Source: Spizellomyces punctatus DAOM BR117 (taxonomy: Eukaryota). Taken from it: DNA of 64,000 nt. How positions within the stretch are numbered: position 1 is the stretch's first letter; every line of letters begins with the position of its first letter. The position numbers were made by a program, and so were the translations under genes. The notes below the pieces were generated by a model, which was not told the origin of the DNA, did not search any database, and saw only the letters and a list, made by a program, of their open reading frames with translations. Shown here piece by piece: positions 42,495-62,448 of this stretch. Location of the stretch: NCBI GenBank assembly GCA_000182565.2, contig KQ257453.1, one strand, 5' to 3'.

Positions 42495-42897
42495 CGAGGC
42501 GATGTCCAGGACACATGTTTGGGTCCGTAAAGGTAGCGCTGCGACCGACCATTGCCCATTTGCTGTGGTGCTTCGGGCTTGCTCAGTGAGTCACCCTTAA
42601 CTAAGCAGTTGGCAGCGGCACAGTCATAAGCGCAATGTAACCTTTTATGGCAAGAAATTGGGGAAACAAAAAAAACACCTCACTGGAAGGTGCGACTTTC
42701 CTTCTGGTCTGTGCGATTTACATCGTTCCTTTTTCCAAATCCCAGTAGAAAAAGGTGGGTTGAACCTCTTTTAGAACGTGGGGAATGGGCATGGGAAGAT
42801 GGGAGCGGGGAAGGAAGTACAAGTCGCTGGTTGGCGAGATCGGCTTTGTGATGCCATGATCACTGATCACTCGGTCGTGTCTGCAGAACCTTCCAAC

Positions 42898-43512
42898 ATG
42901 GCCGACGAAGAGCACCACGAAGAGTTCGAACAAGCTGGGTCTGGTGCCTCCCTCACCTACCCCATGCAGGTACGCTGATCTTGGATCCTCGCTGGACCTT
43001 TCATCAAACTGACCTTGCTCAATTTCATATTACTTGTGTATAGTGCTCTGCATTGCGCAAGAACGGCCACGTTGTGATCAAGGGTCGCCCTTGCAAAATT
43101 GTGGACATGTCTACTTCCAAGACTGGAAAGCACGGTCACGCTAAGGTCCACTTGGTGGCCATTGACGTAGGTCCCGCCGGTTTACTCCTTTTGGATGTAG
43201 CTTGTGTTGATATTCTGCATCGGATAGATCTTCACTGGCAAGAAGCTCGAAGACATCTCACCCTCTACTCACAACATGGATGTGCCTAACGTCTCTAGGA
43301 CTGAGTTTCCTCTCCTGGACATTGATGACGGTTTCCTCTCTTTGATGCACGCTGATGGAAGTACCAAGGATGACGTGAAGCTTCCTGAGGGCGAACTCGG
43401 TGAAAAGATGCAGGCCGAGTTCCAAGACGGGAAGGAGCTCATTGTTACTGTTGTCGCTGCTATGGGCGAAGAGCAAGCCTTGTCTTACAAGGAAGCGCCT
43501 AAGGGTGGGTAG
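42898..43512 (+). CDS. HYP2: Translation factor eIF5A
   Basis: [13 protein letters not shown] and hypusine motif [12 protein letters not shown]. Two introns. Confidence 0.98.
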
Positions 43513-43886
43513 TGGTGCATTCTTTGGATTGTAAATTCCCTTTGTTAATCTGCTCTCCCAGGCAACTAAATCATGTAGCGTAATCGATTACTCCGTTTCC
43601 CTGTTCCGCAAAGTGTACAGCCTGGCCCCTTGGATAGGTCCCCTTGCCTGGGTTTTTGAAAAGGCACCATTTTTTTTATAAATTTTTTCTTTCTACTGTA
43701 TTCTTGCTCTTACCTGATGCGACACTTTACATGCGAATACCAAAGCATGCTGGGAATCATTCGTATCCGTGATTTTTTGATCGAAACGGCCCTGCTCTCC
43801 ATACCATCTGTGTCCAGACAGCAGCCTGTTTATTCTGTTTAAAGAAGTTGAATGGATGATACATTTCGGTTGCACATTATCAACTT

Positions 43887-43916
43887 TAGTGTAGAGGTGA
43901 CAGAAACTGGCACTAG
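43887..43916. repeat. Solo terminal inverted repeat identical to the omegaRNA-side end of the element at 60815-61561
   Basis: TAGTGTAGAGGTGACAGAAACTGGCACTAG is identical to 60815-60844 (30/30). No partner TIR seen nearby. Confidence 0.9.
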
Positions 43917-44215
43917 CAAGGCGCGTAACCGAGATAGCCTCCATAATCAACGACCGGACAAATCGTTTGGGCCCGCAAGAAATCTTGGCCTTTTCATTGC
44001 TATCGAGCTACCGTTTCAAGCGGTTTTCATTATTATTGTCCGCTGTGATGCATTTTGGGGGCAAGACTGAAGCGAAAGGGCTTTCCACAGACAAATGCAC
44101 GATCGGCGTGTTAACGTAATCAACCTTGCCCAATGGCACAGTCAAGTGTGAGCCAGAATACATGAACACCATTACCTCACTGTAGACTTTTCCGAAATCA
44201 GAGTGAATAGCAAAC

Positions 44216-46044
44216 ATGGCAGACCATCCTTTCCAAATCAAGCCCTCGATTGTGAGCATGCGCACCAGAAATCCTATAAGGGCCATTGGTGAGGCAATAT
44301 CGTGTCCCTAGTCGCATCGCCCGCTTGACGCTTTTCTAATTTTGTGATCTCAAAGTTGATAACCTCAAAGTGAAGCCCAACCCCGAAAAGGAATTCATCT
44401 CTCTTGCTTTGGGTGATCCAACGACTTTCGGAAACTTTAAGCTGCACGAATCCTGCTTGGATGCTGTAAAATCGCAATTAGAAAGTTACAAAGCGAATGG
44501 ATACCCACCATCGATAGGGTATGTATGAGCCCGTCCTTTATCGAGAGTTTGGCCAGAGGTGCATGTACATATTGACTGGATTGATCCACGACATTGTGCT
44601 ACGAAGGGATACTGGAGGGCGGTGAGCGGATGTGGCCGTCCCTGGGGGAGGTTGGGCCGCGATAGCGGGTATGATGTGGAGGTACGGTGGAGGTCGTATG
44701 GAAATGGCACGAATACAATCCTGGCCCCCCCCCCCCCCGGGGAATCGCGGAACTGAATGCAGCTCGTCTGACTTGCTGACATCTGATTTGGGTAGAACTG
44801 AACAAGCTCGTGCTGCGGTGGCTCAAGCTTATACTCACCCCCAGGCGCCTCTGACATCGGCAGATGTTATACTTGCTAGTGGGTATGTCGATCCCATACT
44901 TGCGTTTCCTTGCGATGGATTCTGCTTTCCTGACTCTTCGTAAATAGCTGCAGCGATGCCCTTAATCTGTGCATAGGCGCGTTGGCCAACGAAGGGCAGA
45001 ACATTTTGTTACCTGCTCCGGGATTTTCTTTATATGAGACACTAGCAAGCTCCAAAGGCATTGAATGTCGCTTCTACGATCTGCAAGTAGGTATAATGAT
45101 CAATTACACGTCCGAGCCGTCTGTTGACAGTTGTATTATAACATCAGCCACATCGTTCCTGGGAGATTGATCTGAATCACTTGGAGACCTTGGTTGATGA
45201 AAACACTGCTGCCATTTTGGTCAACAACCCGAGTAACCCGTGCGGTTCTGTCTACTCGAAACAACACTTGCTGGATATTCTTGCGGTTGCAGAGAAGCAT
45301 AGGCTACCTATCATTTCTGATGAAATATACGCGGACATGGCATTCACAGGACACGAATTCCTTCCCATCTCGACACTGACAACCACAGTTCCAATACTGA
45401 CTACTGGCGGTCTCGCAAAGAAGTATCTAGTGGTACGTAGTAACGGTTCTCTTAACGAACGACTTTGAGTGCATCCGCTTCAACCTTCTTTACGTCAGCC
45501 TGGCTGGCGGGTGGGCTGGGTTTTAGTTCATGACCGAAATGGAGCCCTTGAACAAATTCGAAAGGGGCTGATAAACCTCAGCCAGTTGATTCTCGGACCC
45601 AATTCACTGGTTCAGGCGGCACTACCGGATATCTTACAAGCCCCGAAATCTTTCTATGAACAAACTATGGAGCAGCTTGAAAGAAACGCCAATATCAGCG
45701 AGAAGCTTCTCACGGGCATTCCAGGACTGCGTCCAGTTTTTCCACAAGGCGCGATGTACTTAATGGTCCGTTTTGCGGGATTCTGAAGAAATCGGGTCCA
45801 ATTGATACTGACATGCTGCTTTATACAGGTTGAGATCGATACAAGCCGCTTTAAAAATATCAATGATGACTTGGATTTTGTCGAGAAGCTCGCGGAAGAG
45901 GAATCCGTCCTATGTCTTCCGGGCAAGTGTTTCCGTTGTAGAGGGAACTTCATTCGAATCGTTTTTACACCGCCAGTGGAAAAGTTAGATATCGCCTATT
46001 CGCGCATACGATCATTCTGCGAGAGGCACCTGGCTAGCTCTTGA
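44216..46044 (+). CDS. TAT: Tyrosine aminotransferase (class I PLP aminotransferase)
   Basis: [46 protein letters not shown] and LAKKYLVPGWRVGW across several exons. Confidence 0.95.
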
Positions 46045-46196
46045 ACAACATGTATGAAGAACCCAATAAGCTAGATATTACAGATTTGAATAACTAGACC
46101 ACGATCGATGACATAATCTCATTTATCCTAATTGGGACCAAGGTCTCAGAGGTTTTCCCACGTCTCCCTCTAGCAAGTACAGTATTTACAAGCAGC

Positions 46197-47255
46197 ATGA
46201 CAAGCAAGCACGGAAGTAGGACAGCAAAGAAACCACCACCCAAGAAGCAAAAGCTTCTTTCAGGTTGGGCAGTCTTTGCATTCGCAACGATACCATGAAC
46301 TCAAGCAAGTATTTTCAGAGCTCCTGACTGTCCCGCGGAATGCAAAGCAAAGAGCTTTGATGGAAACCGCCCAGGAAGAGAGTGATTATGAAGAGGAGGA
46401 GCCTCTTCCTGGAAAGGATGACAGTCAGAGGTCGGTTGCCTGTAGTCAGCAGGTTTGTCAGATATCCTGAATTCCTTTCAAAAGCAGTCAAGGATTGTCC
46501 GACCTGCTTGGACTTTTCCAAGGTATCGTCGCCCAAAGTTCTTTCCCATTGATTTGAGCGCTGCGTGTAAGATGTATTTTTTGTGAAGCTCAATTTAAGA
46601 AAAAGAATGCTCAGCGCACCAAAAAAGCCGAATCAGAGCACGATGCAAAGTTACAAATGACAGTGGAACAGGTATGTATTGAGAGCACGAATGAGCATTT
46701 GGTCCATTGGTTGTGAATTGAACCATCCTAGATGAAGAACTATATTGCAGAACGCGAGGAAGAAAGGTATCAATGATAACTACAAGTATATGAACGGATT
46801 TCGATGCAGAATTAATGCGAGCGGTCCAGAGATGACAAGATAGAAGGGCGAAAAAGAAAGTATGAAGAAACATGGGAACACCAAGGTTGATATACCGATT
46901 GCACGATGCCATTGATTTCAGATTTACCTTCTGATTGCTCATGGGCGCAGCTACCACGATGACCGCGTTCACGACAGACTACGAAAGAGTTCTCAAGGGT
47001 TGGGCAGCCATTATAGATCTGTTGGATACGCATCACACAGGCACATTTAAAGCCCGCCAAGAATTTCATATGGACATGGACGAGCAAAGTAAGCCATTCC
47101 CTAAACAGTCGCATGCTGACCTAACTGTAAACCGTATCAACCTGACAGCGAAATCTCATGCGGTGCAAGCGGCACATCAATTCACCATTATCCAGAAACA
47201 AATTCATGCAGCCAAGAAAGAAGCGCAAGAGCTAATCAAGGTGATCAATCTATGA
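46197..47255 (+). CDS. Hypothetical basic/coiled-coil protein, multi-exon
   Basis: NLS-like N-terminus (KKPPPKKQK), acidic patch and helical C-terminal exons with splice signals. Exon structure not fully resolved. Confidence 0.5.
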
Positions 47256-47642
47256 CCTACTAAAGATTGCAAATGGCGGCTCAGATTGGGTTACTACCAT
47301 AGGAATCATACGATACATCGCATATTAGAAAAGCGATCCAACTATTATTGAACGCGTAATGTCTTCCTATTGTGTCGTCTATTAGCGCAATTGCTGCCGG
47401 CGTATGCGGCAGCAACTTTCGCGTCTATTACGAGGGGATCCACGGATATAGGTAGCAGAGGCAACGCGGCGCGGCAGTCACTCCGGTTGCCGACTCTTCT
47501 TTCTGGCATGATCAGTGTCATAATAAAGCAAACCGCAAACTGACTGAATTCCTCACACGTTCCGTGCTGGCGGCGCGAGGCATTCATGCTTTAATAACTA
47601 GGAATCGCTACGGAATGTGATGGGCTCCAATGCAAGCTGATC

Positions 47643-59225: not shown

Positions 59226-60774
59226 CTACTCGTCACTTTTGTTTTCTCTATCTACAGCTGCTAGTCTTGACTGAGCCACCTCGATCAGAACTTCTATGTG
59301 CTCTATCTGTTCGAAAACGGACTTGAGCTCCCCCTGCGCCCCTCTCTGACGAGTCTTCAAGTCCGCTAATTCCTTTTTGCGCTCTTGCATGATTTTATGT
59401 TGTTCTTCAATTTCAGCCTAGAGGTAAAAAATAGCATTCAGACTCCATTCGAGGACTTTTGCTTGTTCTCACTAGACACATTACATTGATCTTCCTCATT
59501 TCTGGTGATTCTTTTGGTTGATATATGTCGGCCAGATCCTCACTCTCCAGCAGCGTTTGATAAAAATCTGGCTGCAAATTGTGTTTCTTTGAGTGCCCCG
59601 ACCAATTAAGATGAATCATCGCCGTGCACCTACATTGGCTTCGAATTTTGTAAGCAGCTCTTTGAAGACGTCTTCGTCTGCAGCCTTTTCATGCATCCAC
59701 TTATCTACCGACGCCCACCTATCCTTTGAGCGTAGTAGCTGCATCTGCTTGTCGCTGAATACGTCCGACGATACATTTTGAACAAAAGATCGACCTAGTG
59801 TTGTCAGAAACTTTGTTTCCTCCTCTTCGCAGGTTTTCTTCAATCTACACCAGTAGTAGTGAAATTCCGCTCCATATATCAAAAACTAGAACATACTCAG
59901 CATTTTCCTTCTCGATCATCTGTTTTCGAAAAGTAAGGTTGACCAACAGCGACCTAAGATGGTCGAATTCCTCCTCGCTTCCGTTTTCGCACATTAGCTT
60001 TTGGCACTTTGACCGGAGATAGACTTTTTCCTGTACTATATTGAGCAGTGCGGCAATGCACAAGTCATACTCGCGCTGAAAAATGGGTGCGACTCATGAG
60101 AAGGTACTTTGGGTCCTTGAAGCAGTGAGAATATCCACCTTGATGTCCGCCAGAATTGGCCTATAGTTGCGAAATTGCGCAATAACCCGATCATAGATTT
60201 GCTGGAGGCATTCAATCCTATACGGATCTAGCAAGTTGCTTTCGAACCTGCGCAGGGTTTGTAGGTCATCCTGATACTTTGCTACTAGTAGGTCAGGTTG
60301 TTGGGGACATCTTTCCACAGTTGGGTCGGAAGCCAGCCACGCTTTCAGATGATATGGCAGAGAACGGAGATGAAAGCATGGTTGGGTATCATTGCGCACG
60401 GAAAAGTGTGTTGCACCATTCAAGGTCATGATACTACTAGTGATGGAAATACGCAGATGGATCGGAGATTTTCTTATTGTGCACACCAATATTGCTCAAT
60501 TCACGCATATATAAATAAACCACCATTTTCTACTGACATGGCCAAGATCTAATCATGATATTGGCGGATTCATCTGGCAAGATGTCACTTTCTTTGCGTC
60601 CAAGCCATTCCACAATGGGCTATAGCAAAAGTTCTGCAGGACCATACGGGTGAACTCTCTCACCACACCGGACGTGTCATTACATAAATATCATCTGCAC
60701 GAGCACATCATGTAGCTCCGTATCTCGCATGGGTACCAGGAATACCTTTGGCAAAAAAGGTCATTGGTGGTCAT
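59226..60774 (-). CDS. TSNAXIP1 N-terminal-domain-like coiled-coil protein
   Basis: RIECLQQIYDRVIAQFRNYRPILADIKREYD resembles the TSNAXIP1_N motif. Multiple exons. Putative ATG at 60774; ends approximate. Confidence 0.6.
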
Positions 60775-60799
60775 CGTTCAAGTGTAAAGCCCTCCAGGC

Positions 60800-60887
60800 G
60801 GAAGTGACAAAAGTTAGTGTAGAGGTGACAGAAACTGGCACTAGCTACTACACCAGGGAATAAACCGGCGACAACCGGTTTGGAAAA
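60800..60887 (-). ncRNA. Putative Fanzor omegaRNA: scaffold 60887-60815 plus ~15-nt guide 60814-60800
   Basis: Minus strand reads TTTTCC-AAACCGG-TTGTCG-CCGGTTT-ATTCC-CTGG-TGTAG-TAGCTAGTG-CCAG-TTTCTGTCACCT-CTACACTA, then guide ACTTTTGTCACTTCC. It has a perfect 7-bp hairpin, a GTGTAG/CTACAC stem and a possible CTGG/CCAG pseudoknot. Resembles the SpuFz1 omegaRNA as I recall it. Confidence 0.8.
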
Positions 60888-61561
60888 GCTAACTAAGCTA
60901 CTACTAGGCAATTATACACGCAATACGTAACGGTTGGTTCTAACCGGATAATTGCCCACCACCACAGGCGGTCCCTACTAGGCCTTGATCTGGAACTCTT
61001 GATGGCATTGAAGCCAGACTCTTGCATCCAGGAGCGAATCGACTGGGCAGCGTCACAAGCCAGAGGATGTTCAGTGACAAGGCTTGGAGACTAAAACTGC
61101 ATGTCAGCGACAGAATAATATGAAAAGAGATGATGCCATTGGTACATACCAACCAAGCTCAACTAATGTGGCAGCATAATAGTAGGTTTTGTTATCAGAT
61201 CTGATTGGTTGCCGCTGGTTCTGATCACGGTTGCTGTCGGGCGGTCGAGGTCCTCGGCACCAGAGCAGTATTCTCATGATTGGACTGAGACTTGTTGGGC
61301 GGATGCTTTGAGTCGAGGATGGGTAAAGAGGAAAGAGGGAAGAGGGAGCAGGTCCCCCTTTTATAGACCTTTGGCATGCGCCTCACCGCAGTTTAAAAAA
61401 AAAGCTACATTAGCATGCCACACCGCAGTTTGGAGAACATTAGCATCCATGCCTCCTCACCGCTTTGAGCAATGATGGGGGTTCTGATTATGCGATATGA
61501 CTAACCGGATTAATCCGGATAATAATGGGTCCTAGTGCCATTTTCAATCACCTCCACACTA
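60815..61561 (-). mobile_element. Non-autonomous TIR element, Fanzor 'ghost'-type (Spu-1-like), with no nuclease ORF
   Basis: 28-bp imperfect TIRs (60817-60844 and 61532-61559, 24/28 match). TA on both sides (60815-16, 61560-61). CATA on the minus strand at 61563-61560. OmegaRNA-like structure at the other end. Confidence 0.88.
61359..61365 (-). promoter_or_regulatory. TATA box inside the TIR element
   Basis: TATAAAA on the minus strand, followed by a pyrimidine-rich tract and an ATG at 61277, oriented toward the omegaRNA end. Confidence 0.5.
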
Positions 61562-61890
61562 TGGACATCACGTCACTGGCACAGTCACACTACAATACAT
61601 GACTATGCCGTCATTACACTCAAACCGGAATATGAGAAAGATTTGAACCGTGCAGATTTGCACGAGGGGCTGACGTCTTCACACCTTCAAATATCGAACC
61701 CCCGCTCTCGCCCCCCCATCTTTTCCCATCATCTTTTGCTCATCGCAAGCAGTACGTTGCAATCTTTTGCGCACTCCAACATTATCAGTGTTTTTTAAAG
61801 GTATGGAAGCGCGTGTGTCCTTGGGATTTTATTCTGGTTTGTTGTTGGAGACTCTGCTAACACGGTGTTTAGAATCTATCCTCATCTAGT

Positions 61891-62448
61891 ATGGCTAACC
61901 AAAGCAAACCTCAAGCTGCCGGCGGTATCTCCGCCTTGGTCCAATCGGCTAGCGGCCGTGTGCTTCCCCTTATCAGCACTGCTCAGTCCTATGCCATTGC
62001 TACCCTCTCAACATCCAAGGCCATCCTCGACCGGTACCCCCCGCTCAAGGTTTGTGTGCCGTAGTGGTCCTTGTTTTGTTAAGTCACTTGGACTGATCAA
62101 TTCCCCGTGAAATTCTGCCAGGCCTTTGTGTACACTCTTGGTGGTGCCGCCGCTGTACCTCTCGCTGTCTTCACAGGTTACGGTGCTGCCACTGGCGCTG
62201 TCGTCCTCGGTGTCGCCGGAACCGCTGTAACCTTTGTACAAGGCGGTTTCCTCGCATTTGGAGGATTCATTCTCTTCTGGTTCTTGGCAGGAGCTTTCGT
62301 TCTCGCCTCGATCTTGACTTTCTGGTAAGGGTCGGCAATAAGTTACATGACATTCTACGAGAGCTTATCGTGCTCCCTTTCCTTTTATAGGTTCACATTG
62401 GCCTACTTCGCCTTCCAAGTCGCCAAACGCCTTGAGGGCACTGCTTAA
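61891..62448 (+). CDS. Promethin/LDAF1-like lipid-droplet membrane protein
   Basis: Long uninterrupted Gly/Ala-rich hydrophobic stretch AVPLAVFTGYGAATGAVVLGVAGTAVTFVQGGFLAFGGFILFWFL. Multi-exon, stop at 62446-62448. Confidence 0.65.

What the first reader, a model, noticed from the sequence alone, without database searches (positions are those of the whole stretch)
60815..61563. Fanzor-type 'ghost' transposon: TIRs, TA flanks, CATA TAM and omegaRNA but no nuclease
Seen in sequence: 28-bp inverted repeats (24/28) enclose about 690 bp, both flanked by TA. The minus-strand left end reads CATA|GTGTGGAGG and the right end ...CTACAC|TA. Established: Spizellomyces punctatus Fanzor1 uses a CATA TAM, lies in TIR elements and has ORF-less ghost copies that still express omegaRNA. 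Inference: this is a guide-RNA-only module of a eukaryotic RNA-guided nuclease system, loaded in trans by a Fanzor encoded elsewhere. The reconstructed empty site (minus strand, ...GATGTCCATA+ACTTTTGTCACTTCC) is exactly TAM plus target.
Basis: partly seen in the sequence, partly recalled or inferred. Interest (0 to 1): 0.92.

Follow-up and report, generated by a model that had tools for sequence, protein, structure and literature searches.

The report
Known Fanzor 'ghost' guide-RNA transposon copy

Summary
Two 30-nt inverted repeats (26/30, TA included) lie 687 nt apart, with CA just outside one end. The interpretation also holds. The last 75 nt on the minus strand match 15 of 18 omegaRNA nucleotides named in the SpuFz1 structure paper. 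That is the single best of 127,840 positions scanned. This stretch folds into stem 1, a 6-nt linker at 29-34 and stem 2 with a 3-nt bulge, as published for ghost omegaRNAs. The element has no long ORF, and the window has no Fanzor or transposase domain.

The host is Spizellomyces, very probably S. punctatus. Saito et al. 2023 list 134 ghost Spu-1 loci there, so the kind is already known.

What I add comes from public runs. The family is high-copy in DNA. Its RNA covers mainly the omegaRNA-side two thirds. A 59-nt GT..AG intron on the omegaRNA strand is spliced out, downstream of a TATAAAAG box. This suggests the omegaRNA matures from a spliced, promoter-driven precursor. That is inferred, and I found it in no paper I searched.

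The parts
61560..61563 (-). CATA on the minus strand. It is the published SpuFz1 TAM, made of CA outside the element plus the TA that begins the 5' IR.
   Evidence: Sequence. Published TAM and conserved CA upstream of the 5' IR: (PMC10432273).
61532..61561 (-). 5' (left-end, TAM-side) 30-nt inverted repeat.
   Evidence: pair I1, 26/30 with the other arm.
60815..60844 (-). 3' (right-end) 30-nt inverted repeat. It forms the 3' strand of omegaRNA stem 2.
60815..60889 (-). 75-nt omegaRNA scaffold of the ghost type: stem-loop 1, 6-nt linker, and stem 2 with a 3-nt bulge.
   Evidence: 15 of 18 named nucleotides, the single top score among 127,840 positions. MFE -23.9 kcal/mol, z -3.59, 1 of 200 shuffles folds as well. 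Published description.
60800..60814 (-). Predicted 15-nt guide, which is unique flanking DNA read through from the scaffold.
   Evidence: It is unpaired in the fold. The DNA contig of the locus is single-copy here (record 1). The published guide is 14-15 nt beyond the scaffold. No direct RNA evidence exists for this copy.
61091..61149 (-). 59-nt spliceosomal intron on the omegaRNA strand, with GTATGT at its 5' end, a CTGAC branch-like site and TAG at its 3' end.
   Evidence: joint 61090->61150, ends CT..AC on + (GT..AG on -). It is seen in 3+1+1 contigs of X9, X10 and X11 and in 0 contigs of DNA run X1. Sequence. An NCBI protein model of another copy (P0001) uses the same junction.
61358..61365 (-). 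TATAAAAG box, the putative core promoter of the ghost transcript (inferred).
   Evidence: In X9 the RNA depth falls from 27,042 (61215-61275) to 5,082, 1,791 and 32 in the next three bins upstream on the minus strand.
61381..61466 (-). Three copies of the motif AAA(CT)GCGGTG(A/T)GG upstream of the TATA box. They are putative upstream promoter elements (inferred).
   Evidence: family D1; copies at 61466-61455, 61431-61418 and 61394-61381.
60940..61277 (-). 92-codon ORF across the intron. It is probably not a real gene.
   Evidence: it aligns with P0001 (SPPG_09412) over the first 66-67 residues, then the frames diverge. No Pfam family in the ORF pieces except one sub-threshold row (NinE, E 0.023, 15 bits against a cut-off of 25). 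11 family variant sites fall 2, 5 and 4 on codon positions 1, 2 and 3.
43887..43917 (+). Solo 31-nt copy of the omegaRNA-side IR, with no mate and no scaffold. It is a remnant.

Best explanation
Window 60815-61561 is a ghost Spu-1 element. It is a non-autonomous derivative of the Spizellomyces Fanzor1 transposon that keeps both 30-nt inverted repeats and the omegaRNA gene but has no nuclease gene.

Shown here:
- The anatomy and the match to the published SpuFz1 omegaRNA.
- Membership in a high-copy, transcribed family.
- Splicing of a 59-nt intron on the omegaRNA strand.

Inferred:
- Transcription starts from an internal TATA promoter at about 61330 on the minus strand and runs through the spliced interior and the 75-nt scaffold (60889-60815) into the flank.
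- The transcript is trimmed to an omegaRNA of about 90 nt, whose last 15 nt (60814-60800) are the guide.
- A Fanzor1 protein encoded at another Spu-1 locus binds this RNA in trans. It can then cut a site made of CATA followed by the guide sequence. That is exactly the unoccupied allele of this insertion site, so a break there would be repaired from the occupied copy.
- The occupied locus protects itself. The four bases before the guide sequence are ACTA (the IR end), not CATA, and the paper reports that changing any TAM base abolishes cleavage.
- The IRs and TA flanks suggest mobilisation by a cut-and-paste transposase supplied in trans. Its identity is unknown.
For: IR anatomy, CA+TA and lack of ORF.

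Published definition of ghost Spu-1 (134 loci, 30-nt IRs, CA upstream, 75-nt scaffold, 14-15-nt guide, CATA TAM, 3-nt bulge in stem 2).

Named nucleotides: 15 of 18 match, allowing one 1-nt shift between positions 20 and 29. This is the only 15 among 127,840 start positions on both strands; 4 positions reach 14. Two of the 3 misses (C40, G70) are U40 and A70 here, and these two pair with each other in the fold.

Fold: stem 1 at 9-16/21-28, linker at 29-34, stem 2 at 35-75 with a 3-nt bulge, guide unpaired; z -3.59.

Family variants keep stem 1. 60876 C>T and 60867 G>A turn the pair G14-C23 into A14-U23, with equal depth and contig numbers in X1 (49; 4 contigs each) and in X11. 60879 and 60881 give G-U pairs.

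High copy number with boundaries at the IRs: 268 contigs of DNA run X1 were laid, with flanks at depth 3.9.

RNA: X9, X10 and X11 hold spliced contigs of the neighbouring gene and cover the element mainly between 60788 and 61336. X9 reaches 117,490 there against 326 on the neighbour's exon.

Intron and TATA box.

Host: a ghost-family protein model named for S. punctatus DAOM BR117. ELP4 is 95% identical to Spizellomyces sp. 'palustris' and 100% identical to an unnamed cluster mate.
Against: I had no omegaRNA or IR sequence from the papers to align. Supplements are closed and the main texts print none. The match therefore rests on 18 named nucleotides and the described architecture.

The 5' third of the scaffold matches only after a 1-nt shift, and G22 does not match.

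The interior is 687 nt, against the published 'around 550 nt'.

This copy has a private base at 60881. All 19 other X1 contigs there read C.

All RNA evidence is for the family (contigs at 85% likeness or more), not for this copy. Contigs cannot show RNA ends or the 90-nt species. Run X9 is labelled 'DNA?' by the tool; I read it as RNA only because its contig stops at exon borders.

No canonical Fz-bearing copy and no family flanks could be examined, because no genome is held.

Whether a TA-duplicating transposase excises precisely enough to recreate the target is unknown.
Confidence: 0.9

Rival explanations
1. It belongs to the ghost family, but this copy is an inert relic. It is no longer transcribed or no longer loaded by Fanzor1, so it behaves only as an ordinary TA-flanked miniature TIR transposon.
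For: RNA evidence is at family level only. There is a private substitution at scaffold position 9 (60881), where all other contigs read differently. PMC13434818 reports that ghost scaffolds differ widely in activity. No RNA depth was seen on this copy's own flank in the three RNA-like runs, which is weak evidence because contigs are no proof of absence.
Against: The scaffold, linker, both stems, TATA box, splice sites and CA+TA are all intact. The private change turns a G-U pair into an A-U pair and keeps the pairing.
Confidence: 0.2
2. The element is a small protein-coding gene, like the annotated S. punctatus protein SPPG_09412. The spliced transcript would be its mRNA, with the omegaRNA-like end incidental.
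For: A 92-codon ORF stays open across the splice junction. NCBI annotates an 80-aa protein on another copy that uses the same junction. Of the 8 family indels listed table 4 that lie in or beside the element, the 7 single-base ones lie outside the ORF and the one inside is 3 nt. Six further indels were not shown.
Against: The two copies diverge in reading frame after about residue 66 and end differently. No Pfam family reached its cut-off. Only 1 protein in 5.8 billion clusters matched, although the family has many copies. There is no third-codon-position excess among 11 variant sites (2, 5, 4).
Confidence: 0.04
3. It is a generic Tc1/mariner-type MITE unrelated to Fanzor, and the CATA and the fold are coincidences.
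For: TA flanks and TIRs of about 30 bp are typical of Tc1/mariner MITEs (recalled). CA before TA has a 1/16 chance. Rfam has no match.
Against: The top-ranked 15/18 match lies exactly in the register that ends at the IR tip. The linker sits at exactly 29-34 and the scaffold is 75 nt. The host genus is the one where ghost Spu-1 is described.
Confidence: 0.02

Closest known systems
Ghost Spu-1 elements of Spizellomyces punctatus DAOM BR117 (Saito et al. 2023, Nature, PMC10432273; 126 unique ghost scaffolds re-analysed in PMC13434818)
   Same: 30-nt IRs; CA upstream of the 5' IR; no Fz ORF; a 75-nt omegaRNA scaffold with two stems, a 6-nt linker and a 3-nt bulge in stem 2; a guide taken from the 3' flank; high copy number; same host genus and probably the same species.
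   Different: Nothing essential. The interior is 687 nt here against 'around 550 nt' in the paper. I could not check that this locus is on the published list, because supplements are closed. The spliced intron and TATA box that I describe are not mentioned in the text I read.
Canonical Spu-1 / SpuFz1 locus (Bao and Jurka 2013, PMC3627910; Saito et al. 2023)
   Same: IR-flanked with putative TA duplications; omegaRNA at the 3' end running through the IR; CATA TAM.
   Different: The canonical element is about 2.1 kb and holds one ORF of 633-638 aa. Here the longest internal ORF is 102 aa. The paper says ghost IRs differ from Fz IRs at seven positions and that stem 2 differs.
Bacterial IS200/IS605 TnpB-omegaRNA homing system
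   Same: The guide is the DNA beyond the right end and the TAM sits at the left end, so the empty site is the target and the occupied site is spared. This logic is recalled for TnpB. The Fanzor paper draws the same parallel in its discussion.
   Different: Those elements have no TIRs and no target duplication, and are moved by a TnpA (background). The SpuFz1 omegaRNA lacks the TnpB pseudoknot. Here the RNA appears to come from a spliced eukaryotic transcript.
Tc1/mariner-type (Stowaway-like) MITEs
   Same: Short, non-autonomous, TIR-bounded, TA-flanked and multi-copy.
   Different: An ordinary MITE carries no guide-RNA gene. No transposase related to these IRs is known: Saito et al. found none flanked by Spu-1 IRs.

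Membership tests
Ghost Spu-1 element (Saito et al. 2023) | Two 30-nt conserved inverted repeats at the ends | tested here: met
   30-nt arms, 26/30.
Ghost Spu-1 element (Saito et al. 2023) | Conserved CA immediately upstream of the 5' IR (CATA with the IR's TA) | tested here: met
   the minus strand reads CA then TA-GTGTGG at 61563-61555.
Ghost Spu-1 element (Saito et al. 2023) | No Fanzor ORF between the IRs | tested here: met
   the longest internal stop-to-stop frame is 102 aa; no Pfam family at threshold.
Ghost Spu-1 element (Saito et al. 2023) | 75-nt 3' region homologous to the SpuFz1 omegaRNA scaffold | tested here: met
   The test is indirect. 15 of 18 nucleotides named in the paper match, the best of 127,840 positions. 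Two stems plus a linker at exactly 29-34. No published sequence was available for a direct alignment.
Ghost Spu-1 element (Saito et al. 2023) | Ghost-type stem 2 with a 3-nt bulge instead of the canonical 8-nt hairpin loop | tested here: met
   a 3-nt bulge at scaffold positions 46-48 in the MFE and centroid structures.
Ghost Spu-1 element (Saito et al. 2023) | Conserved interior of around 550 nt shared by the family | tested here: inconclusive
   The interior is 687 nt. It is shared by many contigs of DNA run X1, with length variants. The published alignment could not be seen.
Ghost Spu-1 element (Saito et al. 2023) | Host is S. punctatus, and the locus is on the published list of 134 | tested here: inconclusive
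   The genus is shown. The species is probable. The list is in closed supplements.
Ghost Spu-1 element (Saito et al. 2023) | The omegaRNA is bound by SpuFz1 and directs cleavage next to CATA | not testable with these tools
   This needs RNP pull-down or a cleavage assay.
Tc1/mariner-type MITE | TA target-site duplication made by a DD(E/D) mariner-type transposase with related TIRs | tested here: inconclusive
   TA is present at both ends and at the solo IR, but it may be part of the IR. No related transposase lies in the window, and the paper reports none.
Rfam RNA families | Match at the gathering score to any curated RNA family | tested here: not met
   0 matches in the whole window.

The most novel reading that the evidence does not exclude
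Ghost Spu-1 elements are not merely gutted transposons. They are self-contained guide-RNA expression cassettes of the RNA polymerase II type. Each has an internal TATA promoter with three upstream repeats and a spliced 59-nt intron, with the omegaRNA matured from the 3' end of this abundant spliced precursor. That would explain why several hundred non-coding bases are conserved in the family. It would also make the family a eukaryote-style counterpart of a CRISPR leader plus array: many promoters, one scaffold, each with a different guide. I found no mention of this in the Fanzor papers searched and read. Their supplements were not visible.
Probability: 0.4. Interest if true: 0.45.

Novelty: already known. 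Interest (0 to 1): 0.25.

Why it matters
As an identification it adds little. The ghost Spu-1 class, its CATA TAM and its trans use by SpuFz1 are published and already used for genome-editor engineering. What may matter is how the guide RNA is made in its own host, which is still undescribed. The public-run data here point to a spliced, TATA-driven precursor on the omegaRNA strand, with very high family-level RNA abundance. If that holds, omegaRNA biogenesis in a eukaryote can be studied on a defined promoter, intron and scaffold unit. The 100-plus ghost loci would then form an expressed repertoire of guides, and their targets (the empty alleles) can be listed from the genome.

Tried and rejected
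- **Whole-genome search and download:** no genome is held. Copy census, flank tabulation and the search for an Fz-bearing copy were therefore impossible.
- **Rfam on the whole window:** 0 matches.
- **Earlier notes of this scan:** none by place or by sequence. By words, only giant-virus cases came up.
- **IR or scaffold strings in the two Fanzor structure papers, the 2026 engineering paper and the whole library:** no occurrence.
- **Metagenome contig scan with the IR as a pattern (four variable positions):** 0 loci.
- **Coding reading of the interior:** rejected (see rivals).
- **Solo IR at 43887:** no mate within 42500-47500, no match to a solved Fanzor in the adjacent minus-strand frames, and no omegaRNA-like fold (z +2.31). 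I take it for a remnant.
- **Empty allele:** none of the four runs laid showed a contig joining 60814 to 61562. Three of them behave as RNA and the fourth is probably the source strain, so this says nothing.
- **Cover of the unique flanks:** 60727-60787 has none in X9, X10 or X11. 61581-61702 has none in any of the three either. X10 does cover 60483-60726 through one divergent contig (8 other letters, 7 gaps). Contigs prove no absence, so I draw no conclusion.
- **Neighbouring ORFs:** only a weak Promethin hit at 62083-62328.

Full report
**Observation**

The window holds a 30-nt inverted repeat at 60815-60844 and 61532-61561, with 26 of 30 bases matching and 687 nt between the arms. Each arm begins with TA. 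On the minus strand the 61563 end reads CA, TA, then GTGTGGAGG. The other end reads ...CTCTACAC, TA, then ACTTTTGTCACTTCC.

It is not chance:
- The outer 14-mer with up to 2 mismatches occurs 3 times against 0.30 expected, and 1 of 100 shuffles reached 3.
- A third, exact 31-nt copy lies at 43887-43917.
- In a run that behaves as genomic DNA (X1), the flanks have depth about 3.9. The bins from 60788 to 61580 have summed depths of 60-426, from 268 laid contigs. The single-copy contigs of the locus stop inside the two repeats, at 60843 and 61537.

The element is therefore one copy of a high-copy family whose limits are the repeats.

**What is known**

Saito et al. 2023 (PMC10432273; I read passages and sections 7 and 10) report the following for S. 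punctatus DAOM BR117:
- There are 42 Fanzor loci and 134 'ghost Spu-1' loci without the Fanzor ORF.
- Both kinds have 30-nt IRs and a conserved CA upstream of the 5' IR.
- The 75-nt region through the 3' IR is the omegaRNA scaffold, followed by a 14-15-nt variable guide.
- The TAM is CATA, and changing any TAM base abolishes cleavage.
- Ghost omegaRNAs have a stem 2 with a 3-nt bulge, and they work with SpuFz1 in human cells.

Bao and Jurka 2013 (PMC3627910, passages) described SPu-1 as about 2.1 kb with 33-bp TIRs and putative TA duplications. A 2026 paper (PMC13434818, passages) collated 126 unique ghost scaffolds of 74-76 nt.

**Test against the published omegaRNA**

No paper text prints the sequence and supplements are closed. 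I therefore used the 18 scaffold nucleotides that section 10 names: U5, C6, C7, U16-G20, G22, A29, C32, C34, U35, G37, C40, G70, A72 and A75.

I scanned both strands of the window and allowed one 1-nt shift. The only position that reaches 15 of 18 is the minus-strand register that ends at the IR tip (start 60888). Four positions reach 14 and 31 reach 13, out of 127,840.

Numbering from 60889 as position 1, A29, C32, C34, U35, G37, A72 and A75 match directly. The 5' block matches after a 1-nt shift. The misses C40 and G70 are U40 and A70 here, and these two pair with each other in the fold.

The 90-nt RNA folds as follows:
- stem 1 at 9-16/21-28;
- a free 6-nt linker at exactly 29-34;
- stem 2 at 35-75 with a 3-nt bulge;
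- an unpaired 15-nt tail.

The energy is -23.9 kcal/mol with z -3.59, and 1 of 200 shuffles folds as well. This is the published ghost architecture.

Variants among family contigs keep stem 1. G14-C23 becomes A14-U23, with equal depth and contig counts in X1 and X11. Two other changes give G-U pairs.

**No nuclease here**

The longest frame inside the element is 102 aa, and no Pfam family reached its cut-off. All 15 frames of 200 aa or more in the window were scanned, and none shows a TnpB/Fanzor or transposase domain. Rfam finds nothing.

**Host**

The one database relative of the internal ORF is named for S. punctatus DAOM BR117. The window's ELP4 is 95% identical to that of Spizellomyces sp. 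'palustris', and the next relatives are other Spizellomycetales. It is 100% identical to an unnamed cluster mate. The window is therefore Spizellomyces, very probably S. punctatus. The locus is then most likely one of the published 134, which I could not verify.

**Transcript**

Runs X9, X10 and X11 hold contigs of the neighbouring gene that skip 61799-61870 (GT..AG) or stop at exon borders. I therefore treat them as RNA, although two are labelled 'DNA?'.

Their depth on the element is strongly one-sided. In X9 it is 27,000-117,000 from 60788 to 61275, apart from the intron bin 61093-61153, where it drops to 680. It then falls to 5,082, 1,791, 32, 56 and 357 towards the TAM end, against 326 on the neighbour's exon. 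X10 and X11 show the same shape at lower levels. These are sums over the family, not copy-specific values.

A joint 61090->61150 skipping 59 nt appears in 3, 1 and 1 contigs of these runs and in 0 of the DNA run. Its ends are CT..AC on the plus strand, which is GT..AG on the minus strand. The minus-strand sequence is GTATGT...CTGAC...TAG. The protein model P0001 on another copy uses the same junction. So the family is transcribed on the omegaRNA strand and spliced.

Upstream on that strand lie TATAAAAG (61365-61358) and three copies of a 12-14-nt motif. That this is the promoter, and that the omegaRNA is cut from this precursor, is inference. The main text of Saito et al. has no occurrence of 'intron' or 'TATA'. 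Searches for Fanzor with ghost, spliced/precursor, or RNA polymerase II/TATA box found no paper describing it.

**The ORF**

A 92-codon frame spans the junction. Against P0001 it agrees for about 66 residues and then changes frame. Only 1 protein matched. Variant sites show no third-position excess. I take it for a by-product.

**Mechanism and limits**

The unoccupied allele would read CATA followed by the guide sequence, which is a full SpuFz1 target. The occupied locus has ACTA before the same 15 nt. This fits the homing logic proposed for TnpB and Fanzor.

Not shown:
- an omegaRNA from this particular copy;
- loading of that RNA by Fanzor1;
- cleavage of the predicted target;
- which transposase moves the element;
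- whether excision is precise.

**Verdict**

The kind is already known.

Noticed in passing
window 43887-43917 (+): A solo 31-nt copy, 100% identical to the omegaRNA-side IR and also preceded by TA. It lies about 300 bp upstream of a plus-strand gene start. It has no mate repeat, no scaffold and no Fanzor remnant, so it is probably the stump of a lost ghost or Spu-1 copy.
   Followed up: yes
window 60944-60952, 61506-61515, 61516-61524 (+): Three subterminal copies of CCGGAT(A/T)AAT. The last two form the palindrome 61497-61526 next to the TAM-side IR (pair I2). They may be transposase-binding sites.
   Followed up: no
window 60881: This copy reads T where all 19 other family contigs of DNA run X1 and 29 of X9 read C. 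On the RNA this turns a G-U pair at the base of stem 1 into an A-U pair.
   Followed up: partly
window 61730-62120 (+): The neighbouring gene starts about 170 bp from the TAM-side IR. A 72-nt GT..AG intron at 61799-61870 is spliced in X10, and a second intron starts after 62050. Its next exon has a weak Promethin match.
   Followed up: partly
P0001 (SPPG_09412, another ghost copy): A public 80-aa 'uncharacterized protein' model sits on a ghost-element transcript. Because the frame is not kept between copies, it is probably an annotation artefact of the spliced non-coding RNA.
   Followed up: partly
run X9: The run is labelled 'DNA?' but behaves as RNA, with contigs bounded by exon borders and no intergenic cover. 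Its summed ghost-family depth is about 360 times that of the neighbouring gene's exon.
   Followed up: no
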